From NCBI GenBank assembly GCA_964654245.1, contig CAZZGO010000001.1, positions 1 through 63,190 of the forward strand: a stretch of DNA of 63,190 nucleotides, in the 5' to 3' direction. The translations under genes and the position numbers were made by a program. This DNA is from an uncultured Pseudobdellovibrionaceae bacterium. GTDB taxonomy: Bacteria > Pseudomonadota > Alphaproteobacteria > Micavibrionales > Micavibrionaceae. The number at the start of each line of letters is the position of its first letter. The first letter of the stretch is position 1. Of this stretch, positions 19,833-59,432 are shown piece after piece. The notes under the pieces were generated by a model. The model was not told the origin of the DNA and ran no database searches. It saw only the letters and a program-made list of their open reading frames with translations.

Positions 19833-19886
19833 ATATCTCCCGTCCCCTGCTTGTGGGGTTTTGCGTGCTATGGCAAGGTTTTAACC

Positions 19887-31871: not shown

Positions 31872-31943
31872 ACCTGTGTCATGACAGGCAGAGCCCCGGA
31901 TCGTCAACCCATCCCCCGGCAAGAGAACACATTATGCCAAAAT

Positions 31944-31958
31944 GTTCTTTTTTTGTTC
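31944..31958 (+). promoter_or_regulatory. alphaproteobacterial LexA (SOS) box GTTC-N7-GTTC upstream of recA
   Basis: Read directly as GTTC-TTTTTTT-GTTC, about 160 nt upstream of the recA ATG at 32121. Confidence 0.6.
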
Positions 31959-32120
31959 TTTTTTCTTGAACGCAGGAACAAAAAGAGTACAATGAATATC
32001 AGAATCGCCTGTGGGTCACTTTATACGGCCTCTGCCGGCTTCATTGAAACCCTCTACCGACTATGCCAGAAAGGACATACCCCCATGACCGTCACCCCCT
32101 TCAAGAAAGAGAGCAATACC

Positions 32121-33218
32121 ATGATGGAAGGCAAAAACCCCGCAGAGCGTCAAAAAGCACTCGAAGCGGCACTGACCCAGATTGAACGCGCCTTTGGTAA
32201 AGGCTCTGTCATGAAATTGAATGCGGATCATAACCCAATGGAAACCGAAGCAGTTTCAACAGGGTCTCTGGGTCTTGATATCGGGCTGGGGATTGGCGGT
32301 CTGCCCCGGGGGCGGATCACGGAAATTTATGGTCCCGAAAGCTCGGGTAAAACAACTCTCGCCCTTCATGTGATTGCCGAAGCACAAAAAGCCGGCGGTA
32401 CCTGTGCGGTCGTGGATGCAGAACATGCGCTGGATCCATCCTATGCCAAAAAATTGGGCGTGGATGTTGATAATTTGCTGATATCGCAACCGGACACGGG
32501 CGAACAGGCACTTGAAATTGCGGATACGCTCGTACGGTCGGGTGCGGTAGATGTGTTAGTGATCGACTCAGTGGCGGCCTTGGTGCCTCGTGCCGAACTG
32601 GAAGGTGAAATGGGGGATAGTCACGTGGGACTTCAGGCGCGCTTGATGTCACAGGCGTTGCGTAAGATTACCGGCTCGATCTCTCGTTCTCGTTGTGTGG
32701 TCATTTTCATTAACCAGATCCGCATGAAAATTGGCGTGATGTTTGGTTCACCTGAAACAACGACGGGCGGAAATGCCTTAAAATTCTATGCATCGGTGCG
32801 TCTTGATATTCGCCGTATCGGTTCGATTAAAGAGCGTGAAACAGCCGTGGGTAACCAAACCCGGGTGAAGGTCGTTAAGAATAAAATGGCACCGCCCTTC
32901 CGTCAGGTCGAATTCGATATCATGTACGGGGAAGGGATCTCTAAAACAGGTGAAATTATCGATCTGGGCGTACAGGCGGGGGTTGTTGAAAAATCAGGTG
33001 CTTGGTTCGCCGCTGAAGGTGAGCGTATTGGGCAGGGACGTGAGAATGCCAAGCAATATCTGCGGGATCATCCGGAAATGATGGCAACGCTAGAACACAA
33101 GATCCGGGAAAAATCAGGAGTCATGTCCGAAGCCATGTTAGCGGGACCTGAATCAGACACTGATACGGCGTCCGAAGATGAAGCACCTGCACCAAAATCT
33201 AAAAAATCTGCGGGATAG
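32121..33218 (+). CDS. recA: recombinase RecA
   Basis: The ORF was trimmed to ATG 32121, which is preceded by AGAAAGAGAG; ATG 32085 is an alternative. It has [22 protein letters not shown], Walker [14 protein letters not shown], and LVIDSVAAL. Confidence 0.95.
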
Positions 33219-41924: not shown

Positions 41925-42485
41925 ATGTTTTTAACCATGACTGCAGATAACGCCCATTCTCCCTCTGAAGACGGTAGCACCCGCCGCGATTTCCTTTATT
42001 TAACGGCGGCGGCTTTTGGCGCGGTCGGTGCCGGATCGGTGGCGTGGCCATTTATCAACCAGATGAACCCGGCCGCGGATACGCTGGCCATGTCCACCAC
42101 GGAAGTGGATCTGGCGCCTATCGAAGTTGGTCAATCGATTACCGTGATGTGGCGGGGCAAACCTGTTTTTATCCGCCACCGCACGCCCGAAGAAATTGCC
42201 GAAGCCGAAGCCGTGGATGTCTCCAGCCTGCGTGATAAAGAAACAGACCAACAACGCGCCGAAAAACCGGCGTGGCTTGTCACGGTTGGGGTCTGTACCC
42301 ATCTGGGATGTGTGCCGCTGGGGCAAAAGACGGGCGATGCCAAGGGGGAATATGGCGGGTGGTTCTGCCCATGCCATGGATCCCACTACGATACATCCGG
42401 CAGAATTCGCAAAGGCCCCGCCCCTAAAAATCTGGCCGTGCCGCCTTATACCTTTACCACCGATACAACCATTAAAATTGGGTAG
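41925..42485 (+). CDS. petA: ubiquinol-cytochrome c reductase Rieske iron-sulfur subunit
   Basis: 186 aa with a Tat-type [19 protein letters not shown] and the Rieske boxes CTHLGCVP and CPCHGSHYD. Confidence 0.93.
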
Positions 42486-42496
42486 GAGTTTTTCCC

Positions 42497-43777
42497 ATGG
42501 CCTCAGGTTCGCGTCAAAAATTTGATAATCCGGTGATTGAATGGGTCGATAGCCGTCTGCCGATCTTTACCCTGATCAATAAAGAATATGGTGTTTTTCC
42601 GACGCCGCGCAATTTCAACTATTTCTGGAATTTTGGGGCGATTGCCATGGTCATGCTGGTGACCATGATTGTCACCGGTATTACACTGGCGATGCATTAT
42701 AATACGTCCACCGCGGGGGCATTCGATTCTGTGGAACGGATTATGCGGGATGTGAATAGCGGCTGGCTTATTCGTTATCTTCATATGAATGGGGCGTCTT
42801 TCTTTTTTATTGCCGTCTATATCCATATTTTCCGCGGCATGTATTACGGGTCTTATAAAAAACCCCGCGAACTTCTGTGGATGCTGGGTGTTCTGATTTT
42901 CCTGCTGATGATGGCAACGGCGTTCATGGGGTACGTGCTTCCATGGGGGCAGATGTCTTTCTGGGGGGCGACGGTCATCACGAATCTTTTCTCGGCCATC
43001 CCACTGGTGGGGGATTCGATCGTGACGTTCCTGTGGGGTGGTTTTTCGGTTGATAACCCGACACTCACACGCTTTTTCGCCCTGCATTATCTGCTTCCGT
43101 TTGTGATTGTGGGGGTTGTCTTCCTTCACGTCTGGGCGTTGCATGTGACGGGTTCTAACAATCCGCTGGGGATTGATGTAAAAGGCCCGCAGGATACCTT
43201 ACCTTTCCATCCGTATTACACCATGAAAGATACTTTCGGGATTTTGGTTTTCCTCATCGTGTATGTGGCATTTGTGTTCTTCATGCCCAACGCGCTGGGG
43301 CACCCGGACAATTACATTCCGGCCAACCCCATGGTCACACCGGCCCACATTGTGCCAGAGTGGTATTTCCTGCCGTTCTATGCCATCTTGCGCGCCATCA
43401 CCTTTGATATCGGCATACCGTTCACGGACATCGTTTTCATCGAAGCCAAATTAGGCGGCGTGCTGGCGATGTTTGGGTCAATTGCCATGCTGTTTATCCT
43501 GCCGTTTTTGGATACGCATCCGATCCGGAGTGCGACGTTCCGCCCGTGGTATCGCATGGCACTGTTTGGGTTTGTCGTGGTCTTTTTGATACTCGGGGTG
43601 TGTGGCTCCAAGCCGGCCGAAGGGTTCTGGGTGCCGCTGTCTCAATTATGCACGTTGCTGTATTTTGCTTTTTTTGTGGTGGCTATTCCGTTTTTCAACA
43701 AAAAAGAACCTGTGGCTGAACTCCCGCCGAGCATTCATCAGGCCGTGCTAAAATCTCAACCCGTGGCCGCCGAATAA
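42497..43777 (+). CDS. petB: cytochrome b
   Basis: 426 aa with [30 protein letters not shown] and [13 protein letters not shown]. Confidence 0.95.
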
Positions 43778-43789
43778 AGGATATCTGAC

Positions 43790-44551
43790 ATGAGAAAAAA
43801 AATACTTGCCGCGGCGTTGCTGTTTTCCATGATTGGCTTTTCTTCCGCCCATGCGGCCGGGGAGTCTATCGAATACCCGGACGTCAAATGGTCATTTGAA
43901 GGCCCTTTTGGCACATTTGACCGCGCCGCCCTTCAGCGCGGATTTCAGGTGTATAAACAGGTATGTTCGGCATGCCATGGCATGAAAAAACTCCATTACC
44001 GCAACTTATCGGCGCTGGGTTATAACGAAGATGAAATTAAAACCATTGCGGCCGAATACCAGATTACGGATGGCCCCAATGATGAAGGTGATATGTTTGA
44101 CCGTCCCGGGCGTCCGTCAGACCGGTTTAAATCCCCGTACCCGAATGATAATGCCGGAAAATTTGCCAACAATGGCGCCTTGCCGCCGGATTTATCGCTG
44201 ATGATCAAGGCGCGTAAAGACGGCGCAGATTATGTGCATGCGCTATTGACCGGGTATGAAACACCGCCCGAAGGTGAGGAATTATTGAACGGCCAACATT
44301 GGAACAAATATTTCGCAGGGCATAAAATTGCCATGGCCGCCCCCTTGGCCGATGGTGCGGTATCCTATGAGGATGGCACCGAAGGTACCGTGGAGCAATA
44401 TTCATTGGATGTAACGCATTTCCTGGCATGGGCGGCAGAGCCTGAAATGGAAAAACGTAAACAAACAGGCATTAAGGTCATTTTGTTCTTGCTGGCCTTT
44501 GCGGGGATTATGTATGCCGTGAAACGCAAAATCTGGAGCAAGGTGCATTAA
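43790..44551 (+). CDS. petC: cytochrome c1
   Basis: 253 aa with a signal peptide, the heme motif CSACHG, PPDLSLM, and a C-terminal TM anchor (IKVILFLLAFAGIMYAV). Confidence 0.92.
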   Translation: MRKKILAAALLFSMIGFSSAHAAGESIEYPDVKWSFEGPFGTFDRAALQRGFQVYKQVCSACHGMKKLHYRNLSALGYNEDEIKTIAAEYQITDGPNDEGDMFDRPGRPSDRFKSPYPNDNAGKFANNGALPPDLSLMIKARKDGADYVHALLTGYETPPEGEELLNGQHWNKYFAGHKIAMAAPLADGAVSYEDGTEGTVEQYSLDVTHFLAWAAEPEMEKRKQTGIKVILFLLAFAGIMYAVKRKIWSKVH

Positions 44552-44552
44552 C

Positions 44553-44843
44553 ATGGCTGGATCTTCAACGTCTTCCATATCTCGGGAAAAACTACGGGAG
44601 ATGTTGATCCGGTCAAAATTTTACCGGCTGGCGGCCAGTGTTTTTGCCCTTGTCGGGATTGGCTTGTTGATGGTGCTGATGTCCCAATATATCCAAGGGG
44701 ATATGTTCTCCGCACTCAAAGACCCTTTTATCCTGCTTATTTTGGTCATTCCTTTTATGCCGGCAGTCGTTTTGTCGTGGCTGGCCACCAAGGCGGAAAA
44801 GAAATTCAACGACGCGCTTGAATCCCTCGAGAAGTCGTCCTAA
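44553..44843 (+). CDS. small two-TM membrane protein, translationally coupled to petC (copy 1)
   Basis: 96 aa. The ATG lies 1 nt after the petC TAA. Two hydrophobic helices are present (LAASVFALVGIGLLMVLM and FILLILVIPFMPAVVLSWLA). Confidence 0.55.
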   Translation: MAGSSTSSISREKLREMLIRSKFYRLAASVFALVGIGLLMVLMSQYIQGDMFSALKDPFILLILVIPFMPAVVLSWLATKAEKKFNDALESLEKSS

Positions 44844-44852
44844 ATTTGACGT

Positions 44853-45404
44853 ATGAACGATTCACAGGATGATGTCCTGACCTTCTGGTTTGAAGAAACT
44901 CAGCCCGCGCAATGGTTTCAGGTCAATCCCGATTTTGATCAAGCGGTGCGTGATCGTTTTTCAGACACGTATGACAAGGGACAACGCGGTATTCTGGATG
45001 ATTGGCGACGGGATGCGGATGGGTGTCTGGCGCTCTGTCTGGTGTTAGATCAATTTCCCCGGAATATGTTTCGCGGTACATCCCAGGCATTTGCCACGGA
45101 TGCCAAGGCACTGGTGGTATCAAAATATGCCGTGGCCAAGGGGTTTGATCAGGTATTGCCGCCCTTGAAACGCCGTTTTCTTTATTTACCCTATGAGCAT
45201 AGTGAGCATTTGGGCGATCAGCGAAAATGTGTCGAACTATTCGAAAAGATGAAAAAAGATGATCCGCTGGGGCATGAATATGCGCTCAAGCACCTCAAGG
45301 TGATTGAACTTTATGGCCGCTTTCCCCACCGTAACAAAATTTTAGGCCGGATGAATACCCCGGAAGAAGAGACCTATCTTGCGCAGGCGGGCGCAGGCTT
45401 TTAG
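44853..45404 (+). CDS. DUF924-family protein (copy 1)
   Basis: 183 aa. VLTFWFEE...WF...DFDQAVRDRF...LVLDQFPRNMFRG...FLYLPYEHSE...IELYGRFPHRN matches the DUF924 pattern. Confidence 0.7.
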   Translation: MNDSQDDVLTFWFEETQPAQWFQVNPDFDQAVRDRFSDTYDKGQRGILDDWRRDADGCLALCLVLDQFPRNMFRGTSQAFATDAKALVVSKYAVAKGFDQVLPPLKRRFLYLPYEHSEHLGDQRKCVELFEKMKKDDPLGHEYALKHLKVIELYGRFPHRNKILGRMNTPEEETYLAQAGAGF

Positions 45405-45436
45405 AATCATATGAATTTTAAGGAGTCTCTGAACTG

Positions 45437-47122
45437 ATGACACCCACCATAGTGCTCATACATATTATTGCTGGCGTATGCCTTTTGTTGTGGGGGGTCA
45501 AGCTCCTTCGCTCTGGTGTGACCAAGGGGTTTGGGGCTTTGTTGCGCCGCGTGCTCTCCGCGAGTACCAGTAATAGATACAAATCTTTCTTATCCGGACT
45601 CGTGATTACGACGTTTCTGCAAAGCTCTATGGCGACCACGTTGATTGTGTCGTCTTTTGCGGGGCAGGGGATGATTACGGCGGGGATGGGCATTGCGGTT
45701 GTCTTAGGGGCAGATGTCGGGACGACGCTCGTGGCACAGGCACTCTCACTCAATATGGGGCTTCTTTCGCCTATTCTTATGATTGTCGGCTATGTTCTGT
45801 ATTCCTTTGAATCAAATGGGAAGTTAAAAAACCTTGGCCGAATTGCCGTTGGGCTATCCCTCATGATCATGGCACTCGCCTTGATCCGTGAAGGGGCAGA
45901 GCCTCTGAAAGACTCCGAAACATTGCCGCTTATTTTGGCACCTTTGGAAAGCGATCCGTTCTTTGCGGTACTTGTCGCGGCGTTGCTCACGTGGATTGCC
46001 CACTCATCTCTGGCGATCGTGTTATTGTTGATGTCGCTGGTGGCCGGCGGTGCCTTGCCCATGATGCTGGGGCTTTATATGGTATTGGGCGCTAATGTGG
46101 GGGGGACGATTGCTCCCTTAATCGCGACACTCCGCGATAACCCCAACGCGCTTCGTATTCCGCTGGGGAATATGTTGATACGGGTGATTGGCGTGTGCGC
46201 GGCTATTCCCTTTTTACATTATATACATCCGCTTTTGTTCGAAATTGACCCCACCCCGGAACGGGAAATTGTCAACTTCCACTTGGCTTTTAATTTGGCG
46301 TTGGCCATCGTATTCCTGCCCTTTGTCAATATCATCAGTGAATTGTTAAAACGGGCATTGCCGGATCGGCTTCAGCCCGAAGAGCCCGGAAAATCAAAAT
46401 ATCTGAATGACAAGGATCTGGACACGCCTTCTGTGGCTTTGTCATCGGCGATGCGGGAAACCTTACGCATGGCCGACCTGATGGAAAAGATGCTTCAGGA
46501 TACCATGACGGTTTTCAAGACCAATGACGAACGTCTGCTGGATAAAATCAAGGAAGAAGATAATACGCTGGATCAAATTTATGGCCAGATTAAAAACTAT
46601 ATGGCGCGGCTGACCCAAGGGTCCATGGATAAAAAAGAGGCGGCACGTTATTTCCAGATTTTAATGTTCTCCACCAATTTGGAACATGCCGGGGATGTCA
46701 TTGATAAAAACCTGATGCCGCTCGCGCAGAAGAAAATTAAAAACCAGTTTAGTTTCTCGCCGGAAGGATTAAAAGAAATTGAGCATATGCACGGCTTGAT
46801 TGTCGAAAGCGTGAGGCTGGCGCAATCTGTTTTTGTCTCACAGGATGTGAATATGGCGCGTAAAATGCTGGAGGACAAAGATATCATCCGCAAAGCCGAA
46901 ACAGACGGTATGTCCACGCATATTGAGCGTCTTCGCGGCGGGGTGCCGGAGACAATTGCAACCAGCTCACTTCATTTAGACATCATTCGTGATTATCGCC
47001 GCATTAACACCTATATGTGCACCGTGGCGTATCCGATCCTTGAGGAAAAAGGACAAATCAACCCAAGCCGCCTAAGACCGCAAGAAATAAAAATGACCTT
47101 GGATGATGAGGTGAAATTATGA
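45437..47122 (+). CDS. Na/Pi cotransporter family protein with PhoU-like C-terminal domain (copy 1)
   Basis: 561 aa with duplicated transporter repeats (LGADVGTT and LGANVGGT) and C-terminal helical PhoU-like repeats. The stop overlaps the ALDH start (ATGA). Confidence 0.8.
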   Translation: MTPTIVLIHIIAGVCLLLWGVKLLRSGVTKGFGALLRRVLSASTSNRYKSFLSGLVITTFLQSSMATTLIVSSFAGQGMITAGMGIAVVLGADVGTTLVAQALSLNMGLLSPILMIVGYVLYSFESNGKLKNLGRIAVGLSLMIMALALIREGAEPLKDSETLPLILAPLESDPFFAVLVAALLTWIAHSSLAIVLLLMSLVAGGALPMMLGLYMVLGANVGGTIAPLIATLRDNPNALRIPLGNMLIRVIGVCAAIPFLHYIHPLLFEIDPTPEREIVNFHLAFNLALAIVFLPFVNIISELLKRALPDRLQPEEPGKSKYLNDKDLDTPSVALSSAMRETLRMADLMEKMLQDTMTVFKTNDERLLDKIKEEDNTLDQIYGQIKNYMARLTQGSMDKKEAARYFQILMFSTNLEHAGDVIDKNLMPLAQKKIKNQFSFSPEGLKEIEHMHGLIVESVRLAQSVFVSQDVNMARKMLEDKDIIRKAETDGMSTHIERLRGGVPETIATSSLHLDIIRDYRRINTYMCTVAYPILEEKGQINPSRLRPQEIKMTLDDEVKL

Positions 47123-48084
47123 GTACCCTCTATCAGGAAATTTTATCGGCTAATGGTTTAAATGGGCTTAAAACAGGTGGTCTGGTTGTCCGCACACCCA
47201 TAGATGGGACGGTTTTGGCTAAACTCTCCACCCAAACCCCGGCACAGGTTGTGTCGGCGGTTAAAAAATCCCAGTCTGCTTTTTTATCATGGCGCACGGT
47301 ACCCGCACCTGTGCGCGGGGAATTGATACGTTTATGGGGCGAAGAATTACGCCGGGAAAAAGAAAATCTGGGTAAACTCATTACGCTTGAATGCGGAAAA
47401 ATCCTCTCTGAGGGGCGCGGCGAAGTTCAGGAAATGATTGATATCTGCGATTTTGCCGTGGGATTGTCCCGCCAGCTATATGGTCTGACGATTGCGTCGG
47501 AACGTCCCGGTCATCATATGCGTGAAACATGGCAACCTCTAGGGACAATCGGCGTGATCACGGCCTTTAATTTTCCGGCCGCCGTGTGGGCGTGGAATAC
47601 GGCTCTTGCCATTATTTGTGGAAACCCGGTCATTTGGAAACCTTCGGAAAAAACGCCCCTGACAGCAATATCCTGCGCGCGTATTTTTGATCGTTCCATT
47701 AAACGGTTTCGTGAAAATGGACAGGCGGTTCCTGAACATCTCTCTCAGGTGATCATCGGCGGCGCAGAGGCAGGGCAGGTGTTGGTGGATCATCCCCATG
47801 TTCCCCTAATCAGTGCCACGGGGAGCACCCGTATGGGGCGTATCGTGGGGGAACGTGTGGCCAGACGTTTGGGTAAATCGCTTTTGGAATTGGGCGGCAA
47901 TAACGCCATGGTGGTCACGCCCACGGCGGATTTGGATATGGCGGTTCGTGCTATTTTATTCGGCGCGGTGGGTACGGCAGGACAACGTTGTACAACCTTG
48001 CGCCGGTTGATTGTGCATCGTTCAATCAAAACAAAACTTCTATCTGCGTTGAAAAAAGCCTATGGATCTATCCGCGTGGGCTCC
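47119..48084 (+). pseudogene. 5' fragment (about 321 codons) of the ALDH7-like aldehyde dehydrogenase, truncated at the duplication junction
   Basis: Identical to 50807..51772 of the intact copy. After ...YGSIRVGS the frame runs into the filler and out-of-frame petC sequence (track ORF 47119..48210). Confidence 0.9.
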
Positions 48085-48103
48085 GCGGCGCAGACTTCCT
48101 TGT
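48085..48103 (+). other. 19-nt filler at the duplication junction
   Basis: gcggcgcagacttccttgt is present in neither parental context (ALDH continues ccttaaaccc at 51773; petC has ...ggatgtaac before 44416). Confidence 0.9.
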
Positions 48104-48239
48104 GCATTTCCTGGCATGGGCGGCAGAGCCTGAAATGGAAAAACGTAAACAAACAGGCATTAAGGTCATTTTGTTCTTGCTGGCCTTTGCGGGGATTATG
48201 TATGCCGTGAAACGCAAAATCTGGAGCAAGGTGCATTAA
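48104..48239 (+). pseudogene. duplicated 3' fragment of petC (last 44 codons plus stop)
   Basis: Identical to 44416..44551. It encodes HFLAWAAEPEMEKRKQTGIKVILFLLAFAGIMYAVKRKIWSKVH without the heme domain. Confidence 0.9.
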
Positions 48240-48240
48240 C

Positions 48241-48531
48241 ATGGCTGGATCTTCAACGTCTTCCATATCTCGGGAAAAACTACGGGAGATGTTGATCCGG
48301 TCAAAATTTTACCGGCTGGCGGCCAGTGTTTTTGCCCTTGTCGGGATTGGCTTGTTGATGGTGCTGATGTCCCAATATATCCAAGGGGATATGTTCTCCG
48401 CACTCAAAGACCCTTTTATCCTGCTTATTTTGGTCATTCCTTTTATGCCGGCAGTCGTTTTGTCGTGGCTGGCCACCAAGGCGGAAAAGAAATTCAACGA
48501 CGCGCTTGAATCCCTCGAGAAGTCGTCCTAA
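48241..48531 (+). CDS. small two-TM membrane protein (copy 2)
   Basis: Translation is identical to 44553..44843. Confidence 0.5.
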   Translation: MAGSSTSSISREKLREMLIRSKFYRLAASVFALVGIGLLMVLMSQYIQGDMFSALKDPFILLILVIPFMPAVVLSWLATKAEKKFNDALESLEKSS

Positions 48532-48540
48532 ATTTGACGT

Positions 48541-49092
48541 ATGAACGATTCACAGGATGATGTCCTGACCTTCTGGTTTGAAGAAACTCAGCCCGCGCAA
48601 TGGTTTCAGGTCAATCCCGATTTTGATCAAGCGGTGCGTGATCGTTTTTCAGACACGTATGACAAGGGACAACGCGGTATTCTGGATGATTGGCGACGGG
48701 ATGCGGATGGGTGTCTGGCGCTCTGTCTGGTGTTAGATCAATTTCCCCGGAATATGTTTCGCGGTACATCCCAGGCATTTGCCACGGATGCCAAGGCACT
48801 GGTGGTATCAAAATATGCCGTGGCCAAGGGGTTTGATCAGGTATTGCCGCCCTTGAAACGCCGTTTTCTTTATTTACCCTATGAGCATAGTGAGCATTTG
48901 GGCGATCAGCGAAAATGTGTCGAACTATTCGAAAAGATGAAAAAAGATGATCCGCTGGGGCATGAATATGCGCTCAAGCACCTCAAGGTGATTGAACTTT
49001 ATGGCCGCTTTCCCCACCGTAACAAAATTTTAGGCCGGATGAATACCCCGGAAGAAGAGACCTATCTTGCGCAGGCGGGCGCAGGCTTTTAG
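48541..49092 (+). CDS. DUF924-family protein (copy 2)
   Basis: Translation is identical to 44853..45404. Confidence 0.7.
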   Translation: MNDSQDDVLTFWFEETQPAQWFQVNPDFDQAVRDRFSDTYDKGQRGILDDWRRDADGCLALCLVLDQFPRNMFRGTSQAFATDAKALVVSKYAVAKGFDQVLPPLKRRFLYLPYEHSEHLGDQRKCVELFEKMKKDDPLGHEYALKHLKVIELYGRFPHRNKILGRMNTPEEETYLAQAGAGF

Positions 49093-49124
49093 AATCATAT
49101 GAATTTTAAGGAGTCTCTGAACTG

Positions 49125-50810
49125 ATGACACCCACCATAGTGCTCATACATATTATTGCTGGCGTATGCCTTTTGTTGTGGGGGGTCAAGCTCCTTCGCT
49201 CTGGTGTGACCAAGGGGTTTGGGGCTTTGTTGCGCCGCGTGCTCTCCGCGAGTACCAGTAATAGATACAAATCTTTCTTATCCGGACTCGTGATTACGAC
49301 GTTTCTGCAAAGCTCTATGGCGACCACGTTGATTGTGTCGTCTTTTGCGGGGCAGGGGATGATTACGGCGGGGATGGGCATTGCGGTTGTCTTAGGGGCA
49401 GATGTCGGGACGACGCTCGTGGCACAGGCACTCTCACTCAATATGGGGCTTCTTTCGCCTATTCTTATGATTGTCGGCTATGTTCTGTATTCCTTTGAAT
49501 CAAATGGGAAGTTAAAAAACCTTGGCCGAATTGCCGTTGGGCTATCCCTCATGATCATGGCACTCGCCTTGATCCGTGAAGGGGCAGAGCCTCTGAAAGA
49601 CTCCGAAACATTGCCGCTTATTTTGGCACCTTTGGAAAGCGATCCGTTCTTTGCGGTACTTGTCGCGGCGTTGCTCACGTGGATTGCCCACTCATCTCTG
49701 GCGATCGTGTTATTGTTGATGTCGCTGGTGGCCGGCGGTGCCTTGCCCATGATGCTGGGGCTTTATATGGTATTGGGCGCTAATGTGGGGGGGACGATTG
49801 CTCCCTTAATCGCGACACTCCGCGATAACCCCAACGCGCTTCGTATTCCGCTGGGGAATATGTTGATACGGGTGATTGGCGTGTGCGCGGCTATTCCCTT
49901 TTTACATTATATACATCCGCTTTTGTTCGAAATTGACCCCACCCCGGAACGGGAAATTGTCAACTTCCACTTGGCTTTTAATTTGGCGTTGGCCATCGTA
50001 TTCCTGCCCTTTGTCAATATCATCAGTGAATTGTTAAAACGGGCATTGCCGGATCGGCTTCAGCCCGAAGAGCCCGGAAAATCAAAATATCTGAATGACA
50101 AGGATCTGGACACGCCTTCTGTGGCTTTGTCATCGGCGATGCGGGAAACCTTACGCATGGCCGACCTGATGGAAAAGATGCTTCAGGATACCATGACGGT
50201 TTTCAAGACCAATGACGAACGTCTGCTGGATAAAATCAAGGAAGAAGATAATACGCTGGATCAAATTTATGGCCAGATTAAAAACTATATGGCGCGGCTG
50301 ACCCAAGGGTCCATGGATAAAAAAGAGGCGGCACGTTATTTCCAGATTTTAATGTTCTCCACCAATTTGGAACATGCCGGGGATGTCATTGATAAAAACC
50401 TGATGCCGCTCGCGCAGAAGAAAATTAAAAACCAGTTTAGTTTCTCGCCGGAAGGATTAAAAGAAATTGAGCATATGCACGGCTTGATTGTCGAAAGCGT
50501 GAGGCTGGCGCAATCTGTTTTTGTCTCACAGGATGTGAATATGGCGCGTAAAATGCTGGAGGACAAAGATATCATCCGCAAAGCCGAAACAGACGGTATG
50601 TCCACGCATATTGAGCGTCTTCGCGGCGGGGTGCCGGAGACAATTGCAACCAGCTCACTTCATTTAGACATCATTCGTGATTATCGCCGCATTAACACCT
50701 ATATGTGCACCGTGGCGTATCCGATCCTTGAGGAAAAAGGACAAATCAACCCAAGCCGCCTAAGACCGCAAGAAATAAAAATGACCTTGGATGATGAGGT
50801 GAAATTATGA
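49125..50810 (+). CDS. Na/Pi cotransporter family protein with PhoU-like domain (copy 2)
   Basis: Translation is identical to 45437..47122. Confidence 0.8.
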   Translation: MTPTIVLIHIIAGVCLLLWGVKLLRSGVTKGFGALLRRVLSASTSNRYKSFLSGLVITTFLQSSMATTLIVSSFAGQGMITAGMGIAVVLGADVGTTLVAQALSLNMGLLSPILMIVGYVLYSFESNGKLKNLGRIAVGLSLMIMALALIREGAEPLKDSETLPLILAPLESDPFFAVLVAALLTWIAHSSLAIVLLLMSLVAGGALPMMLGLYMVLGANVGGTIAPLIATLRDNPNALRIPLGNMLIRVIGVCAAIPFLHYIHPLLFEIDPTPEREIVNFHLAFNLALAIVFLPFVNIISELLKRALPDRLQPEEPGKSKYLNDKDLDTPSVALSSAMRETLRMADLMEKMLQDTMTVFKTNDERLLDKIKEEDNTLDQIYGQIKNYMARLTQGSMDKKEAARYFQILMFSTNLEHAGDVIDKNLMPLAQKKIKNQFSFSPEGLKEIEHMHGLIVESVRLAQSVFVSQDVNMARKMLEDKDIIRKAETDGMSTHIERLRGGVPETIATSSLHLDIIRDYRRINTYMCTVAYPILEEKGQINPSRLRPQEIKMTLDDEVKL

Positions 50811-52321
50811 GTACCCTCTATCAGGAAATTTTATCGGCTAATGGTTTAAATGGGCTTAAAACAGGTGGTCTGGTTGTCCGCACACCCATAGATGGGACGG
50901 TTTTGGCTAAACTCTCCACCCAAACCCCGGCACAGGTTGTGTCGGCGGTTAAAAAATCCCAGTCTGCTTTTTTATCATGGCGCACGGTACCCGCACCTGT
51001 GCGCGGGGAATTGATACGTTTATGGGGCGAAGAATTACGCCGGGAAAAAGAAAATCTGGGTAAACTCATTACGCTTGAATGCGGAAAAATCCTCTCTGAG
51101 GGGCGCGGCGAAGTTCAGGAAATGATTGATATCTGCGATTTTGCCGTGGGATTGTCCCGCCAGCTATATGGTCTGACGATTGCGTCGGAACGTCCCGGTC
51201 ATCATATGCGTGAAACATGGCAACCTCTAGGGACAATCGGCGTGATCACGGCCTTTAATTTTCCGGCCGCCGTGTGGGCGTGGAATACGGCTCTTGCCAT
51301 TATTTGTGGAAACCCGGTCATTTGGAAACCTTCGGAAAAAACGCCCCTGACAGCAATATCCTGCGCGCGTATTTTTGATCGTTCCATTAAACGGTTTCGT
51401 GAAAATGGACAGGCGGTTCCTGAACATCTCTCTCAGGTGATCATCGGCGGCGCAGAGGCAGGGCAGGTGTTGGTGGATCATCCCCATGTTCCCCTAATCA
51501 GTGCCACGGGGAGCACCCGTATGGGGCGTATCGTGGGGGAACGTGTGGCCAGACGTTTGGGTAAATCGCTTTTGGAATTGGGCGGCAATAACGCCATGGT
51601 GGTCACGCCCACGGCGGATTTGGATATGGCGGTTCGTGCTATTTTATTCGGCGCGGTGGGTACGGCAGGACAACGTTGTACAACCTTGCGCCGGTTGATT
51701 GTGCATCGTTCAATCAAAACAAAACTTCTATCTGCGTTGAAAAAAGCCTATGGATCTATCCGCGTGGGCTCCCCCTTAAACCCGCAAACACTGGTAGGTC
51801 CGTTGATTGACGCGGCATCTGCCAAGGCCATGCAGGGGGCATTAAAAAAAGCCGTTCAGTCAGGCGGGAAAATTTTATCCGGCGGTGATCCCGTCATCGT
51901 CAAAGGATGTGAGAAGGGAGCGTATGTTCGACCTGCCTTGGTGGAGATGCCGCATCAGGCCGATATTGTTCGCCATGAAACCTTTGCGCCCATTTTATAT
52001 GTCATGACGTATGATACGCTGGATCAGGCGATTGAGATTCAAAATGATGTTCCGCAAGGCTTGTCTTCCTGTATTTTTACGCGTGACGTCAGAGAATCAG
52101 AGTTTTTCTTATCTTCCGCCGGAAGCGATTGCGGCATTGCGAATGTGAATATTGGTCCCAGTGGTGCCGAAATTGGCGGTGCGTTTGGCGGCGAAAAAGA
52201 AACCGGTGGCGGCCGGGAAAGTGGGTCTGATTCCTGGAAGGTCTATATGCGCCGCCAGACACAGACGGTGAATTATTCATCGGCGTTGCCGTTGGCGCAG
52301 GGCGTTGTGTTCGATCTTTAG
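50807..52321 (+). CDS. aldehyde dehydrogenase, ALDH7 (alpha-aminoadipic/piperideine-6-carboxylate semialdehyde dehydrogenase)-like, intact copy
   Basis: 504 aa with FNFPAAVWAWN, ELGGNNAMVV, and GTAGQRCTTLRRL (catalytic Cys in the context typical of ALDH7). Confidence 0.8.
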   Translation: MSTLYQEILSANGLNGLKTGGLVVRTPIDGTVLAKLSTQTPAQVVSAVKKSQSAFLSWRTVPAPVRGELIRLWGEELRREKENLGKLITLECGKILSEGRGEVQEMIDICDFAVGLSRQLYGLTIASERPGHHMRETWQPLGTIGVITAFNFPAAVWAWNTALAIICGNPVIWKPSEKTPLTAISCARIFDRSIKRFRENGQAVPEHLSQVIIGGAEAGQVLVDHPHVPLISATGSTRMGRIVGERVARRLGKSLLELGGNNAMVVTPTADLDMAVRAILFGAVGTAGQRCTTLRRLIVHRSIKTKLLSALKKAYGSIRVGSPLNPQTLVGPLIDAASAKAMQGALKKAVQSGGKILSGGDPVIVKGCEKGAYVRPALVEMPHQADIVRHETFAPILYVMTYDTLDQAIEIQNDVPQGLSSCIFTRDVRESEFFLSSAGSDCGIANVNIGPSGAEIGGAFGGEKETGGGRESGSDSWKVYMRRQTQTVNYSSALPLAQGVVFDL

Positions 52322-55211: not shown

Positions 55212-56074
55212 GGGAGGGCTTTTTCCCCCGTACCAATTTCATGAGTATCCAAGGCATCGGCGAGACGTTTTTCTGCGCTTCCGGGGCGAAGGGGTTTTTG
55301 CTGGCTGTCATGCGCCTGCCAGCCGCAGGCGTAAAGAATATCAAATGTCGCGGGTATTCGGCCATCATCTTGGGCATATTGGGTACGATAAATCTGCTCG
55401 GCGTTTTGCCAAACGGTCCGCGACAACCTAGGGCGTGCTGAGGGCGAGAAGGGGTTCCCTTCCCCCATGCCCCGCAGATCATGAATCAGTTTTAAAGGAT
55501 TAGAATACGTCACCGTGATTTTGTCATGATCCACCACAGGCAAGGTAAATTGAGCCCGCTGCATAAGGGCCGACATATCCTGAAGGGAGATCAGGGGCGC
55601 AAGTCGGCGCGCCAAACCGCCCCCTTGTTCCATATCTGCACCCGCGAGCGCGGTACGAAGCTCCCATAATGTTTCCCCGCCCATCAGGCCGGCGATAAAA
55701 AAACCATCCGGTTTTAAACTTTGCCGAAGTTGCCAGAGCGCCCCCGGCACATCATTCAGAATATGTATCGATAGCGGGCATAAGATCAGATCAAATTGTT
55801 GTGCCCTAAAGGGCAGTTGATCTGGCGTGCCGATTACCGTGGATTGGGGGGATATATCCAGCACTGTCACAGGCTTGTTATAGAAAGATTCAATGTGTTG
55901 TGCGAGGGGGGGCATGCCCACCATCAGGATATGTTCAAAAGACCGTTTGACCATATTAAGACGCCCCAGCATTTCATGAAGCACACGGCGATGCAGAAAA
56001 TCATACTGGGAAAAATGGTGCGCCGCCCGGATTTTATTCTGCCGCAGAGCGGTGAGAGAAAAAAGCGATGTCAT
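55208..56074 (-). CDS. methyltransferase-fold protein (BioC/NDUFAF5-like) with degenerate SAM motif I
   Basis: 288 aa with FDLILCPLSIHILNDVPGALWQLRQSLKPDGFFIAGLMGGETLWELR. The expected GxGxG block reads ILMVGMPPL. It has a 4-nt overlap with gloB and a 1-nt overlap with the upstream gene. Confidence 0.6.
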   Translation of the reverse strand: MTSLFSLTALRQNKIRAAHHFSQYDFLHRRVLHEMLGRLNMVKRSFEHILMVGMPPLAQHIESFYNKPVTVLDISPQSTVIGTPDQLPFRAQQFDLILCPLSIHILNDVPGALWQLRQSLKPDGFFIAGLMGGETLWELRTALAGADMEQGGGLARRLAPLISLQDMSALMQRAQFTLPVVDHDKITVTYSNPLKLIHDLRGMGEGNPFSPSARPRLSRTVWQNAEQIYRTQYAQDDGRIPATFDILYACGWQAHDSQQKPLRPGSAEKRLADALDTHEIGTGEKALP

Positions 56075-58524
56075 TATCGGCCGGGCGGGCTGTTTTCGAA
56101 GGGACGATAAAATGTGTCAACTTCTGAGGCCTTTAGAGCAATAGGTTGACTGAGCGCTTGTACGCGCGAGTGACTGAAATCAGACCGAGGGCTATGTTCA
56201 CTGTTGAGTCCGAGCCCCGAGCGATAGGCAAGCGCAACAACCCGCATAAAGCTGTAATAATTATCGAGATATAAAAGCTCGTTCAAATGATACAGGGGGC
56301 AGTATTTCGTGGGCCCGTGTGTGCGTCCTATTTTCCGCCAACCGGTTGATCCCGCCGTACTGACGGCAAAGGGGTAAATTCGTCTCGGAGTGACGCCCGC
56401 ATGACAGAAATAGCTTTCCCCCATTTTTGACACACAGTCGATCTGGACTTCAAATTTTTCGGCAATGTATTTGCGAGCCAGTTCCATATTGGTGATGTCC
56501 TTGGGCAACGCCAGTGACGGACAAGTTAAAATATATCCATTACCCTTATAGCGTTGTGGTACAGGTAAAAATTGTTCAATAACGCCCGCCATGACCTCGC
56601 CATTGATTTTCTTGGTCAGCGGCAGAACGACGGCCACATTCAGGCTTTCCTGCTGTGGGATAACAAAACTCATATCCTTTGAGGCAAGTCCCGTAATGCC
56701 GCCGCTTTGGGTTTGGCCTTCGTCCACAAAGACGGACTGAATGGTTTTTAATTGCCCTGCATTGCCGCGTACTTCCTTGAAGCGATGATCTTTCATCGCA
56801 AGATTACGGACAATTTCATCTAGTTTGGTTGTGTCTTCAATATGTTCTTCTTGAAGAATAAGCGGTGTTTCTGTCCAGGATTGATAGGGGATATTCATTT
56901 TTTGATACAGAGCCAGTATCTGTATTTCAAGTCGGCTGGAAGGGATTAATCCCACACCTATGGCATTTAGAATGATTTGCGCGTCTATTTCTTTTAAATG
57001 ACCGCGAGTCGAAAATCCCTGCAAATCATCAATAACCGGTGGCGGTGAGTGGCTTCGGCTATTGGCATCAATGCGCAGGTACTTGGTTTCAATGCGCTCA
57101 TCAATACTATCGGGAGCCGGGTAGAACCCCGGGCCGTCCTCAAGGGATGTTCCCATCTCAGGCTTAAGTCCCAAATAATCTTGAGAGAAATGAAGCAGTG
57201 ACCTCATATCACCCGGCTTCATGTCATGCAGTATATGTTGTGGGACGGCCAGAGCTTCGATCATATGGCCTGACCATCTTTTCCCATCCAGATTAGGAAC
57301 TCCCCGGGGTACGGCATTTGTAATGCATCGCGGGATACCTTCATGCACAAAGACATTCAACGCGCCCGTATCCGTTATCCTGTAAGGCAGGATCTCGGTC
57401 GTTTCGACGCCGCGAAAGACAACATCCAGCAGGCGTCCAGTGACATCATCGCGCATGGCCGAAATTCTAAAACTGGATTGAGATTTTTTTGAAGGCTTGC
57501 GTTCCTGAAGTACCAGAGATTGGCGTTCTGCATTTTTTGTGGCAAGGGCTATAAAACTTGTCGGCGGTGGCCCTAAAGGTGTTCCTTCTTCGGAAAGAAG
57601 TTTAAATTTTTTATCAAATCTATTTTTAATGATTTGAGGATCCCAATGTGGGGCGGTGTATAAAACACGCATGCCCAATCCATTTAAGGTACGCCGGAAT
57701 TCCTGCCCTGTAAAAAAGGCGTATTCTTTCTGAAGTTCTGTTTCCCAGGAATCGCGGTTATTTTTGCGCAGGACGAATTCATGTGCCCATTTTGCCGGAA
57801 GGCGGAATAAACGTGTGCGCGGGAATCGTGCCGGTAGTTCTTCAAGATAGAAACCACGGCAGTTTTCATCGTCCCGAGGGCGTGCTTGCTCTGAATAACG
57901 TATTAACAAGTCAGATTCCGACATATCCGCAATGGTTTGGCCGCCGGGTTTATCTGGCATTTCAATCAAAACCAGATCCTCGGATTGACGGGCATGGTCA
58001 CGGATCAATAACTGCCCCCCCTGACGGAGCATGTCATATTGCCGCTCCAAAAGCATATGAACCGTTTTTTCACTGCATCCTGAAGATGAATATACTTCGT
58101 ATAAGGTAAAATTATTGATGATGGCATCCAAAGAGTTTTTAGGGATGAAACTATCGTGAATATCTCCACAGATGAATTGAAGATTGGGTAATGAAAACAG
58201 ATCCTGCGCTTTGCGGATGGCCTTTTTATCCCGATCTATGCCGATAAATTTCATCTGGGGGTTCATGACGGCCATAGCATAGGTCAGCATGCCTTCATGA
58301 CAGCCAGCATCTAAAATGCGCGAACCGTTTTCCAAGACCAGATGCGCCATGATGAACCATGCACTTCGTGCCACGGAATTCGGAATATCGACAGCCGGCG
58401 GCAGAGAAGAGGTTGCAGGCGAGGAGGAAGAAATATCCGGCGAAGGATCGTCAACAGAAGGCATATCCGCGGAGCCTGGTGCCACGCGTTCCATTTTTTC
58501 GCGAATGGTTTTCACCTTGATCAT
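56074..58524 (-). CDS. 816-aa fusion protein: N-terminal class I SAM methyltransferase plus ~550-aa uncharacterised C-terminal region
   Basis: SRILDAGCHEGMLTYAMAVMNPQMKFIGIDRD...FICGDIHD...LRQGGQLLIRDH defines the MTase. I could not assign the remainder, though two segments look vaguely Nudix-fold-like without a Nudix box. Confidence 0.6.
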   Translation of the reverse strand: MIKVKTIREKMERVAPGSADMPSVDDPSPDISSSSPATSSLPPAVDIPNSVARSAWFIMAHLVLENGSRILDAGCHEGMLTYAMAVMNPQMKFIGIDRDKKAIRKAQDLFSLPNLQFICGDIHDSFIPKNSLDAIINNFTLYEVYSSSGCSEKTVHMLLERQYDMLRQGGQLLIRDHARQSEDLVLIEMPDKPGGQTIADMSESDLLIRYSEQARPRDDENCRGFYLEELPARFPRTRLFRLPAKWAHEFVLRKNNRDSWETELQKEYAFFTGQEFRRTLNGLGMRVLYTAPHWDPQIIKNRFDKKFKLLSEEGTPLGPPPTSFIALATKNAERQSLVLQERKPSKKSQSSFRISAMRDDVTGRLLDVVFRGVETTEILPYRITDTGALNVFVHEGIPRCITNAVPRGVPNLDGKRWSGHMIEALAVPQHILHDMKPGDMRSLLHFSQDYLGLKPEMGTSLEDGPGFYPAPDSIDERIETKYLRIDANSRSHSPPPVIDDLQGFSTRGHLKEIDAQIILNAIGVGLIPSSRLEIQILALYQKMNIPYQSWTETPLILQEEHIEDTTKLDEIVRNLAMKDHRFKEVRGNAGQLKTIQSVFVDEGQTQSGGITGLASKDMSFVIPQQESLNVAVVLPLTKKINGEVMAGVIEQFLPVPQRYKGNGYILTCPSLALPKDITNMELARKYIAEKFEVQIDCVSKMGESYFCHAGVTPRRIYPFAVSTAGSTGWRKIGRTHGPTKYCPLYHLNELLYLDNYYSFMRVVALAYRSGLGLNSEHSPRSDFSHSRVQALSQPIALKASEVDTFYRPFENSPPGR

Positions 58525-58697: not shown

Positions 58698-59432
58698 ATG
58701 AAAATAAAAGCCTTGATCGATATCGTTCTACCCCCCCGGTGCCCGTTGTCCGGGGAATGTGTGGATTCGCCCGGGATGCTCTCGCCGTCGGTGTGGAAAA
58801 AATTATCCTTCATCAGCGATCCTGTCTGTTCGGCATGTGGCGTCCCTTTCGATTTCACCATAGACACCCAAGGGATGGTATGTGCGTCCTGCCTGAAAAA
58901 CCGTCCGGCCTATGACCACGCACGGTCGGCTTTGGTGTACGAAGAGACATCACGTGACCTGATTTTGGGGTTCAAGCATGGGGATCAAACACAGAATGTT
59001 CATGCCTTTATCCCTTGGTTGAAAATGGCGGGCGCACCTTTTTGGCCAGAAGCGGATGTTTTAATCCCCGTACCGCTCCATTGGACCCGCTTACTTCGGC
59101 GCAGATATAATCAATCGGCACTGATGGCTCAGGCCTTGGGGAAGGATATGAATATCCCTGTGCACCTGTCGGCACTGGCACGGCAGAGAGCTACCCCCAC
59201 CCAAGGTCATCTGAAAGCCAAAGACCGTGCCCGTAATGTGCGGGCGGCCTTTATCGTTCGGCCTCAATTTCACACATATATCAAAGATAAGAACATTGTT
59301 TTAATGGATGATGTTTATACCACAGGATCAACGGTCAAAGAATGTGCGCAGGCCTTGAGAGCCGCTGGGGCAGGGCAGGTGAATGTCCTAACGCTGGCAC
59401 GTGTCATTAAACGCCAAACACTTAATGTATGA
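58698..59432 (+). CDS. comF: ComF-family (amidophosphoribosyltransferase-like) protein
   Basis: 244 aa with N-terminal Cys pairs (CPLSGEC, CSACG, CASC) and the PRTase motif IVLMDDVYTTGST. Confidence 0.8.
   Translation: MKIKALIDIVLPPRCPLSGECVDSPGMLSPSVWKKLSFISDPVCSACGVPFDFTIDTQGMVCASCLKNRPAYDHARSALVYEETSRDLILGFKHGDQTQNVHAFIPWLKMAGAPFWPEADVLIPVPLHWTRLLRRRYNQSALMAQALGKDMNIPVHLSALARQRATPTQGHLKAKDRARNVRAAFIVRPQFHTYIKDKNIVLMDDVYTTGSTVKECAQALRAAGAGQVNVLTLARVIKRQTLNV

What the first reader, a model, noticed from the sequence alone, without database searches (positions are those of the whole stretch)
44416..51772. Sequence-identical 3.7-kb tandem duplication (petC tail to mid-ALDH) with no mobile element
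Bases 44416..48084 are repeated at 48104..51772, an offset of 3,688 nt. I compared both ends and about 450 nt base by base. Every six-frame ORF inside, including non-coding frames, has an identical translation in both copies, which implies roughly 100% identity over 3,669 bp. The unit carries the last 136 nt of petC, a 96-aa membrane protein, a DUF924 protein, a Na/Pi-PhoU transporter and the first 966 nt of an ALDH7-like gene. No transposase, integrase or long flanking homology is present, so this is not IS-mediated. Zero divergence indicates one of three things: a very recent or unstable gene amplification (for example selection for transporter dosage), population heterogeneity, or an assembly artefact.
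Basis: seen in the sequence. Interest (0 to 1): 0.7.

Follow-up and report, generated by a model that had tools for sequence, protein, structure and literature searches.

The report
Recent tandem duplication with odd filler
A 3.7-kb piece of a respiratory and phosphate-transport operon is duplicated head-to-tail in an uncultured Micavibrio-like bacterium; reads from one bioreactor sample confirm it, which is an ordinary event except that the two copies are joined by 19 bases identical to another kind of bacterium's cytochrome c1 gene.

Summary
Bases 44416-48084 equal 48104-51772 (3,669 nt, 0 mismatches), separated by a 19-nt filler. It is not an assembly artefact. In one public bioreactor metagenome run (X1), independent k-mer contigs show a unit contig of exactly 3,669 nt at 49.8x. 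They also show a 79-nt junction contig at 22.9x and flanks averaging 23.0x, so the unit is about 2x and there is about one junction per genome. The junction words occur in no other indexed run. Sibling samples, a 99.5%-identical strain and a Micavibrionaceae MAG all carry one copy. No IS, integrase, flanking repeat or microhomology is present, so this is a very recent illegitimate tandem duplication. It doubles orf96, DUF924 and a Na/Pi-PhoU transporter inside the petABC operon. petC and the ALDH stay intact, and a truncated ALDH and a petC tail are left at the joint. The new detail concerns the filler. Its reverse complement is the exact coding sequence of the cytochrome c1 heme-binding motif (Y)KEVCAA(CH), as found in at least 108 GC-rich metagenome contigs. 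The host's own petC has at least 8 mismatches there. The donor of the filler is unresolved. The phenomenon is ordinary; the filler is a curiosity.

The parts
41925..44551 (+). petA (41925-42485), petB (42497-43777) and petC (43790-44551): the intact cytochrome bc1 operon head. The left breakpoint lies in petC codon 209.
   Evidence: Rieske_proteo 233 bits; Cytochrom_C1 335 bits. The host's own heme motif is YKQVCSACH.
44416..48084 (+). Copy 1 of the duplicated unit (3,669 nt). It holds the petC tail, orf96 (44553-44843), DUF924 (44853-45404), Na/Pi-PhoU (45437-47122) and ALDH codons 1-322 (47119-48084).
   Evidence: 0 mismatches to copy 2; the X1 contig L004 is exactly these 3,669 nt, at depth 49.8.
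47119..48210 (+). Truncated ALDH' fusion ORF. It has 322 native residues, including the ELGG Glu at 257 and the GQRCT Cys motif at 288, followed by a 41-aa out-of-frame tail read through the filler and the petC tail.
48085..48103 (+). 19-nt junction filler GCGGCGCAGACTTCCTTGT. Its reverse complement, ACAAGGAAGTCTGCGCCGC, encodes (Y)KEVCAA of the cytochrome c1 CxxCH heme site as found in GC-rich bacteria. It is not the host's own petC sequence.
48055..48133 (.). Diagnostic junction stretch (30 nt of unit end + filler + 30 nt of unit start). It is present as a 79-nt contig at depth 22.9 in run X1 only.
48104..51772 (+). Copy 2 of the unit. It holds the petC' tail fragment (48104-48239, no start codon), orf96 (48241-48531), DUF924 (48541-49092), Na/Pi-PhoU (49125-50810) and the first 966 nt of the intact ALDH.
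50807..52321 (+). Intact 504-aa ALDH7-type L-piperidine-6-carboxylate dehydrogenase, the last gene of the operon. The right breakpoint lies after codon 322 (51772).

Best explanation
This is a genuine, very recent head-to-tail duplication of a 3,669-bp operon-internal segment in the chromosome of an uncultured Micavibrionaceae bacterium. It formed by illegitimate, homology-independent joining of position 48084-equivalent (ALDH codon 322) to position 44416 (petC codon 209), through a 19-bp templated filler. In the one bioreactor sample where it occurs there is on average about one junction per genome. Sibling samples and conspecific strains have the single-copy operon. The tightly packed genes (gaps of -4 to +32 nt, no convincing terminator) suggest one transcription unit, petABC-orf96-DUF924-NaPi/PhoU-ALDH. 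If so, the second copies of orf96, DUF924 and the Na/Pi-PhoU transporter would be transcribed by read-through, and their dosage would roughly double. petC (upstream copy) and the ALDH (downstream copy) stay intact. The by-products are a truncated ALDH' with a junk tail and a start-less petC' tail. Shown here: the sequence identity, the junction in reads, the depth ratios, the single-copy state in relatives, and the absence of repeats or IS elements. Inferred: physical tandem linkage, read-through expression, recency, instability through the recA that the window itself encodes, and any selective benefit. The filler was copied or captured from a cytochrome-c1-type heme-site sequence that the host's own petC does not have. 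The most likely donor is DNA of another, GC-rich alphaproteobacterium in the community; another locus of the same genome is less likely.
For:: 3,669/3,669 nt identical, with a 19-nt filler and no shared bases at the joints; in X1 the k=31 contig graph breaks exactly at the duplication boundaries. The left flank ends at 44445, the unit contig is 44416-48084, the junction contig is 48055-48133, and the right flank starts at 51743; seven flank contigs have a length-weighted mean depth of 22.98, the unit is 49.8 (2.17x) and the junction is 22.9 (1.00x); junction-specific words are held by X1 only. X2/X3 from the same study have the unit at 9.8 against flanks of 8.5-11.1 and zero depth over the junction; X4 also has zero depth there, at about 5x coverage; the contig L003 from another study (99.5% identity) runs petB-petC-orf96-DUF924-NaPi-ALDH without interruption; the Micavibrionaceae MAG UWPOB_MICAV1 (86-88% nt identity) is single-copy and collinear; no flanking repeats and no mobile-element genes in the neighbours scanned. 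RNA-run contigs 100% identical to the window span petC->orf96; the filler matches at least 120 metagenome contigs exactly. In 108 of 120 it is the inverted YKEVCAACH heme site of petC next to petB homologues (median GC 64%). The host's own petC differs at 8 or more of 19 positions, and the relative L001 differs at 5 of 19; a contig carrying that 19-mer in a petC context with no listed differences is present in X1 (depth 3), and more such contigs are in sibling runs.
Against: Only short-read k-mer contigs were available. The same graph and depths would arise from one chromosomal copy plus an equimolar 3,688-bp circle, or from a mix of cells with 1 and 3 or more copies. No read physically spans a whole unit. 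The window differs from the X1 contigs at 40559 and 52602, so its exact source assembly is unknown. Sample metadata (same reactor? time order? amplification before sequencing?) could not be obtained. Neither the filler donor nor the joining enzyme is identified. The filler comes from a petC gene and one breakpoint lies in petC, and this coincidence is unexplained. No evidence bears on selection.
Confidence: 0.8

Rival explanations
1. Assembly artefact: the assembler expanded a single-copy region and no such junction exists in the DNA.
For: Zero divergence between the copies is what an artefactual expansion would give. The source assembly of the window is unknown.
Against: An independent k-mer assembly of run X1 contains the 79-nt junction contig at depth 22.9, and the unit at 2.17x the flank depth. 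An artefact would not create a 19-nt filler supported by 49 junction-specific k-mers.
Confidence: 0.03
2. The junction belongs to an extrachromosomal 3,688-bp circle (unit plus filler), for example a pop-out product, that coexists with a single-copy chromosome at about equal copy number.
For: The de Bruijn graph and depth ratios cannot distinguish this from a chromosomal tandem repeat.
Against: The segment starts inside petC and ends inside the ALDH. None of the products scanned in the unit is a replication protein or recombinase. A non-replicating circle would not be held at 1.0 copy per genome across a population. A circle carrying the filler would most simply arise from a pre-existing tandem duplication anyway.
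Confidence: 0.05
3. A real tandem amplification, but heterogeneous within sample S1: a subpopulation carries 3 or more copies and the rest carry one, rather than every cell carrying exactly two.
For: Depths give only the mean (one junction per genome). Unit depth (49.8) is slightly above flank plus junction (45.9). Duplications of 3.7-kb identical repeats are expected to expand and collapse through RecA, which the window encodes. This expectation rests on established knowledge of bacterial amplifications.
Against: A junction/flank ratio of 1.00 and a unit/flank ratio of 2.17 are most simply explained by a fixed two-copy state. No direct evidence exists either way.
Confidence: 0.2
4. A library or amplification artefact specific to run X1. 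For example, an early chimera in whole-genome amplification, or contamination with a concatenated PCR product in which the primer-length 19-mer is an oligonucleotide against the conserved petC heme site.
For: The filler is primer-sized, matches a highly conserved gene motif exactly and is foreign to the host genome. The junction is seen in a single run. Library metadata are missing.
Against: The depths are integer-like (1.00x and 2.17x), which contamination or amplification chimeras would hit only by luck. Only the head-to-tail joint is seen, with no head-to-head or tail-to-tail contigs or loose ends at the unit ends. The right end of the unit carries no primer copy. Flank depth is even across 20 kb, unlike amplified DNA.
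Confidence: 0.07

Closest known systems
RecA-independent (illegitimate) tandem duplications and gene amplifications in bacteria, for example cat-gene amplification junctions in Acinetobacter baylyi and the large 0-1-bp-microhomology duplications in Pseudomonas fluorescens SBW25
   Same: A direct head-to-tail repeat with breakpoints inside unrelated genes, no flanking repeat or IS, and 0 nt of junction homology. The copies are identical and the state is polymorphic between related populations. Interior gene dosage is doubled while the boundary genes survive in one intact copy each. Background: bioRxiv 10.64898/2026.05.22.727201, PMC9997567 and PMC11721125 (listed).
   Different: It is seen in an uncultured predator-lineage population in a metagenome, not under a known laboratory selection. 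The joint carries a 19-nt templated insertion. Reference-based junction tools are said not to detect junction insertions, and such insertions appear rarely reported.
[quoted passage not shown]
   Same: Both joints are blunt, with no microhomology, and extra nucleotides lie between the joined ends.
   Different: LigD polymerase additions are usually a few non-templated nucleotides (my own knowledge). Here 19 nt are identical to a real gene sequence, so a DNA fragment was captured or copied. Whether this genome has Ku/LigD could not be examined.
[quoted passage not shown]
   Same: A very short ectopic stretch of DNA, of intragenomic or extragenomic origin, ends up in the chromosome (abstract of bioRxiv 10.1101/2023.11.22.568220).
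   Different: SPDIR patches anneal at microhomologies and create microindels, not a 3.7-kb duplication. No significant microhomology between donor-type flanks and the breakpoints was found here.
Replicative template switching with templated junction insertions (FoSTeS/MMBIR-type complex rearrangements)
   Same: A tandem duplication with a short, inverted, templated segment at the joint fits serial template switches.
   Different: Those models use 2-5-nt microhomology at each switch and usually nearby templates. Neither is seen here: there is no donor within the 63 kb, even with 3 mismatches allowed.

Membership tests
Tandem (head-to-tail) segmental duplication | Two adjacent direct copies of the same segment | tested here: met
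   3,669 nt, 0 mismatches, offset 3,688.
Tandem (head-to-tail) segmental duplication | A novel end-to-start junction present in primary sequence data | tested here: met
   a 79-nt junction contig at depth 22.9 in run X1. Its words occur in no other indexed run.
Tandem (head-to-tail) segmental duplication | About 2x depth of the unit relative to the flanks | tested here: met
   unit 49.8 against a length-weighted flank mean of 22.98 (2.17x).
Tandem (head-to-tail) segmental duplication | Single-copy arrangement in close relatives (derived state) | tested here: met
   L003 (99.5% identity) and L001 (86-88%) are collinear and single-copy. X2/X3 show 1x unit depth.
Tandem (head-to-tail) segmental duplication | Both copies and both flanks on one DNA molecule | not testable with these tools
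   Only k-mer contigs of short-read runs were available, and no long-read run was identified.
Homologous-recombination or IS-mediated duplication | Direct repeats (IS, rrn, REP) at the outer boundaries of the unit | tested here: not met
   identity ends abruptly, and the window holds no other repeat of 24 nt or more except an unrelated 44-nt pair.
Homologous-recombination or IS-mediated duplication | A transposase or integrase gene in or beside the unit | tested here: not met
   the neighbours are hemF, petABC, TrcR, gloB, methyltransferases, a ComF-family protein and UbiH; no tRNA.
Microhomology-mediated joining (MMEJ or single template switch) | Shared bases at the junction | tested here: not met
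   there are 0 ambiguous bases at either side, and the ends are separated by 19 inserted bases.
End joining with captured or added filler (NHEJ-like) | Blunt joints with inserted nucleotides | tested here: met
   a 19-nt insert with no homology to either end.
End joining with captured or added filler (NHEJ-like) | Ku and LigD encoded by the genome | not tested
   Only 63 kb of the genome is on hand. None of the ORFs scanned was Ku or LigD, but most of the genome is unseen.
SPDIR or short foreign-DNA patch integration | The inserted patch is identical to an ectopic or extragenomic sequence | tested here: met
   the exact 19-mer is the petC heme site in 108 of 120 metagenome contigs. It is absent from the host's petC and present in petC contigs of the same community.
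SPDIR or short foreign-DNA patch integration | Microhomologies between the donor flanks and the recipient at both joints | tested here: inconclusive
   mean local-alignment scores of 107 donor-type flanks against the breakpoints are not above random window controls (27% and 12% of controls are as good). One donor (L048) shares CCGCGTGG near the left joint, but out of register.

The most novel reading that the evidence does not exclude
The 19-bp filler is a captured fragment of another bacterium's petC DNA. It could be prey or environmental DNA that entered a Micavibrio-type predator and was ligated into a double-strand-break repair joint, or used as a template, when the duplication formed. Homology search between the foreign petC and the resident petC might have brought the fragment to this locus. 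That would be a direct footprint of foreign, possibly prey, DNA fragments taking part in chromosome rearrangement in an obligate predator.
Probability: 0.3. Interest if true: 0.6.

Novelty: new member of a known kind. Interest (0 to 1): 0.4.

Why it matters
Spontaneous tandem duplications are the commonest bacterial rearrangement, but they are seldom caught in natural, uncultured populations because assemblers collapse them and they revert quickly. Here one sits at about one junction per genome in a single bioreactor sample and was not detected in sibling samples. That gives a concrete case for studying the dynamics of copy-number variation in situ, possibly involving phosphate-transporter dosage. 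If the filler really is foreign DNA, it would show that very short exogenous fragments can be built into rearrangement joints in nature. For genome curation, the practical message is that this repeat should be kept and not collapsed.

Tried and rejected
1. A donor for the filler inside the window. None was found with up to 3 mismatches. Only 9-11-nt sub-matches at chance frequency turned up. The 10-mer at 47759-47768 lacks matching flanks.
2. The host's own petC, or that of its relatives, as donor. This was rejected: 8 or more of 19 mismatches in the window and 5 of 19 in L001.
3. Microhomology between donor-type petC flanks and the breakpoints. It was not above controls.
4. Hairpins at the breakpoints or the junction. 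z-scores were -0.01 to 0.63.
5. The exact ALDH' fusion protein in the public gene-call collection. It is not on record.
6. Papers naming the runs. None were found; the UWPOB paper concerns a different study and a different species.
7. tRNA or Rfam elements that might mark an integration site. None were found.
8. Laying reads on locus L003.
It therefore could not show whether the window's own contig, or a same-genome donor, is in that collection. None of the 120 loci returned is from this organism (at most 71% identity).
Full report
OBSERVATION

Bases 44416-48084 and 48104-51772 are both 3,669 nt and differ at 0 positions. Identity stops abruptly on both sides, and the copies are separated by 19 nt, GCGGCGCAGACTTCCTTGT, at 48085-48103 (seeds). 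It is the only long repeat in the 63-kb window.

Gene content is as described:
- petA (41925-42485), petB (42497-43777) and petC (43790-44551).
- A 96-aa ORF with two hydrophobic segments (44553-44843).
- DUF924 (44853-45404).
- A 561-aa Na_Pi_cotrans + PhoU protein (45437-47122).
- A 504-aa aldehyde dehydrogenase that passes NCBIfam's cutoff for L-piperidine-6-carboxylate dehydrogenase (808 bits against 730). It is intact only in the downstream copy (50807-52321).

The unit starts at the third base of petC codon 209 and ends after ALDH codon 322.

IS IT REAL DNA?

A 401-nt probe across the joint is held best by one 2019 bioreactor-metagenome run, X1. X1 is SRR9107545, according to the record name. 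Laying that run's independent k=31 contigs on the locus gives the textbook graph of a two-copy tandem repeat:
- A left-flank contig ends at 44445, 30 nt into the unit.
- A contig covers exactly 44416-48084. It was retrieved as L004 and is 100% identical to both copies.
- A 79-nt contig covers 48055-48133, which is 30 nt of unit end, the filler and 30 nt of unit start.
- A right-flank contig starts at 51743.

Over 20 kb, the seven flank contigs have depths of 18.6-28.6, with a length-weighted mean of 22.98. The unit has 49.8 (2.17x) and the junction contig 22.9 (1.00x). So there is on average one junction per genome and two units per genome. An assembler artefact is excluded.

DISTRIBUTION

A search with only the 79-nt junction stretch, in which every 31-mer contains filler bases, finds the words in X1 alone among all indexed runs.
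- In sibling runs of the same study (X2/X3), the same strain is present at 99-100% identity. Its unit depth is 9.8 against flanks of 8.5-11.1, and depth over the junction is zero.
- X4 and X25 are too thin to say much, but they hold none of the junction words.
- A contig from another study (L003, the same contig as one from run X6; 99.5% identical) runs uninterrupted from petB through petC, orf96, DUF924 and NaPi into the ALDH beyond codon 322.
- The closest genome in the species-representative collection is MAG UWPOB_MICAV1, classified o__Micavibrionales; f__Micavibrionaceae (2 Mb, 49.3% GC; PMC8103865). It is collinear and single-copy at 86-88% nucleotide identity.

The duplication is therefore derived and confined to one sampled population. 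With zero divergence over 3.7 kb, it is very recent.

HOW IT FORMED

No flanking direct repeat is present. The neighbouring ORFs scanned between about 35 and 62 kb hold no IS, integrase or tRNA. They are ordinary core genes: hemF, TrcR, gloB, methyltransferases, a ComF-family protein, UbiH, CckA and recA itself. There is no microhomology at the joints and no unusual hairpin potential at either breakpoint or at the joint.

This places the event among homology-independent (illegitimate) tandem duplications. That class is known from Acinetobacter and Pseudomonas experiments, where junction microhomology of 0-1 bp is reported (titles). The leading strand is probably the + strand, because cumulative GC skew rises throughout the window. 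A replication-associated event is therefore possible but not demonstrated.

THE FILLER

The 19-mer has no counterpart in the window, even with three mismatches allowed. Only chance-level 9-11-nt sub-matches occur.

In 108 of the 120, the reverse complement ACAAGGAAGTCTGCGCCGC encodes (Y)KEVCAA of the heme-binding site YKEVCAACH of cytochrome c1. These sites lie in contigs that also align to the window's petB at 66-71%. The loci have a median GC of 64%. The other 12 hits are unrelated contexts, which indicates the chance background.

The window's own petC encodes YKQVCSACH with quite different codons, with 8 or more of 19 mismatches. The Micavibrionaceae relative differs at 5 of 19.

So the filler is not random nucleotide addition. 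It is an inverted copy of a petC heme-site sequence of a type the host's own petC lacks, and it was inserted next to the host's own petC tail.

Community members with that 19-mer in a petC context exist in the same study. One contig at depth 3 in X1 shows no listed differences over the 19 bases, and several more are in X4 and X25. The depth-15 petC contig in X1 differs at two positions.

Donor-type flanks show no significant similarity to the breakpoints.

I cannot tell whether the template was foreign DNA or an unseen locus of the same genome. Foreign DNA could be prey DNA or environmental DNA; the window encodes a ComF-family protein, though such genes are widespread. An unseen same-genome locus seems less likely given the GC-rich codon choice, which is an inference. 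The filler comes from petC and one breakpoint lies in petC, which suggests a link. One possibility is homology search bringing a foreign petC fragment to the resident gene. I could not build a model that predicts the observed inverted, blunt 19-nt insert, so this remains unexplained.

CONSEQUENCES

These are inferred from the sequence. Gene spacing is tight:
- petC to orf96: +1 nt.
- orf96 to DUF924: +9 nt.
- DUF924 to NaPi: +32 nt.
- NaPi and the ALDH: 4-nt overlap.

No convincing terminator lies inside the unit. RNA-run contigs 100% identical to the window span the petC-orf96 boundary (DNA carry-over cannot be excluded).

The second copies of orf96, DUF924 and the Na/Pi-PhoU transporter keep their own ribosome-binding regions and should be transcribed by read-through, which would double their dosage. 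One intact petC and one intact ALDH remain.

The joint produces a 363-aa ALDH' (47119-48210). It consists of 322 native residues, including the ELGG Glu and the GQRCT Cys motifs, plus 41 out-of-frame residues. It lacks the C-terminal 182 residues and is presumably non-functional. The joint also leaves a start-less 136-nt petC tail.

Two identical 3.7-kb direct repeats in a recA+ genome are expected to collapse frequently, according to established knowledge of bacterial duplications. About one junction per genome therefore implies either a recent clonal expansion or selection. Selection for transporter dosage is plausible in a bioreactor but untested.

RIVALS

- An equimolar 3,688-bp circle would give the same graph and depths. 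But the segment has no replication or recombination functions and begins and ends inside genes.
- A mixed population of 1-copy and 3-or-more-copy cells is compatible with the mean depths.
- A run-specific laboratory artefact is suggested by the primer-like size and conserved-motif identity of the filler. It is disfavoured by the integer-like depth ratios, the even flank depth, and the presence of only a head-to-tail joint.
- Long reads or PCR on independent DNA would settle all three.

VERDICT

'Assembly artefact' is refuted. The phenomenon is a known kind, an illegitimate tandem duplication. The foreign-type petC heme-site filler is an unusual and unexplained detail worth a follow-up. Interest is moderate.

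Noticed in passing
window 48085-48103; loci L006-L125: The exact 19-mer ACAAGGAAGTCTGCGCCGC, encoding (Y)KEVCAA of the cytochrome c1 heme site, recurs unchanged in at least 108 GC-rich metagenome contigs from many environments. This is a strikingly conserved nucleotide stretch, not only a conserved peptide.
   Followed up: partly
window 31725-33218 (+): recA lies 11 kb upstream of the duplication. The mechanical ORF is 497 aa, but the RecA model matches only residues 141-462, so the true start is probably well downstream of the listed TTG. RecA's presence means the duplication should be recombinationally unstable.
   Followed up: partly
window 58698-59432 (+): A ComF/GntX-family protein (double zinc ribbon plus phosphoribosyltransferase domain), below NCBIfam's curated cutoffs. 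It is a DNA-uptake-associated family, possibly relevant to the idea of foreign DNA entering the cell.
   Followed up: no
window 41930-44752, 46658-46859, 47877-48084: Contigs from two 2025 activated-sludge RNA-seq runs (X9, X14) are 100% identical to the window over petA, petB, petC-orf96, NaPi and the ALDH. The same strain therefore seems to be present, and probably transcriptionally active, in an unrelated study, where the junction words are absent.
   Followed up: partly
window 40559, 52602, 53916: The window differs from X1's contigs at two SNPs (C>T, G>A), and X1 has a minor 1-nt insertion variant. So the window is not simply the majority consensus of the only run that holds the junction. 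Strain micro-heterogeneity or a different source assembly could explain this.
   Followed up: no
window 47422-47456 (and 51110-51144): A 35-nt stretch inside the ALDH is matched, with at most 1 mismatch, by unrelated and more abundant contigs in X1, X2, X3 and X5 that diverge on both sides. It is a conserved ALDH motif shared at the nucleotide level with other community members, and it makes graph branch points inside the unit.
   Followed up: no
window 19851-22955 (+) and 56074-58524 (-): Two large ORFs (1,034 aa and 816 aa) have no NCBIfam match at 1e-10. The 816-aa ORF has only an N-terminal methyltransferase domain in Pfam.
   Followed up: no
window 4350-4393 and 12548-12591: A 44-nt direct repeat at 77% identity. 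The first copy lies near the 5' end of the flgE gene (2732-4462, minus strand), and the second lies in an ORF I did not annotate. It probably reflects a conserved domain shared by paralogous flagellar proteins and not a mobile repeat.
   Followed up: no
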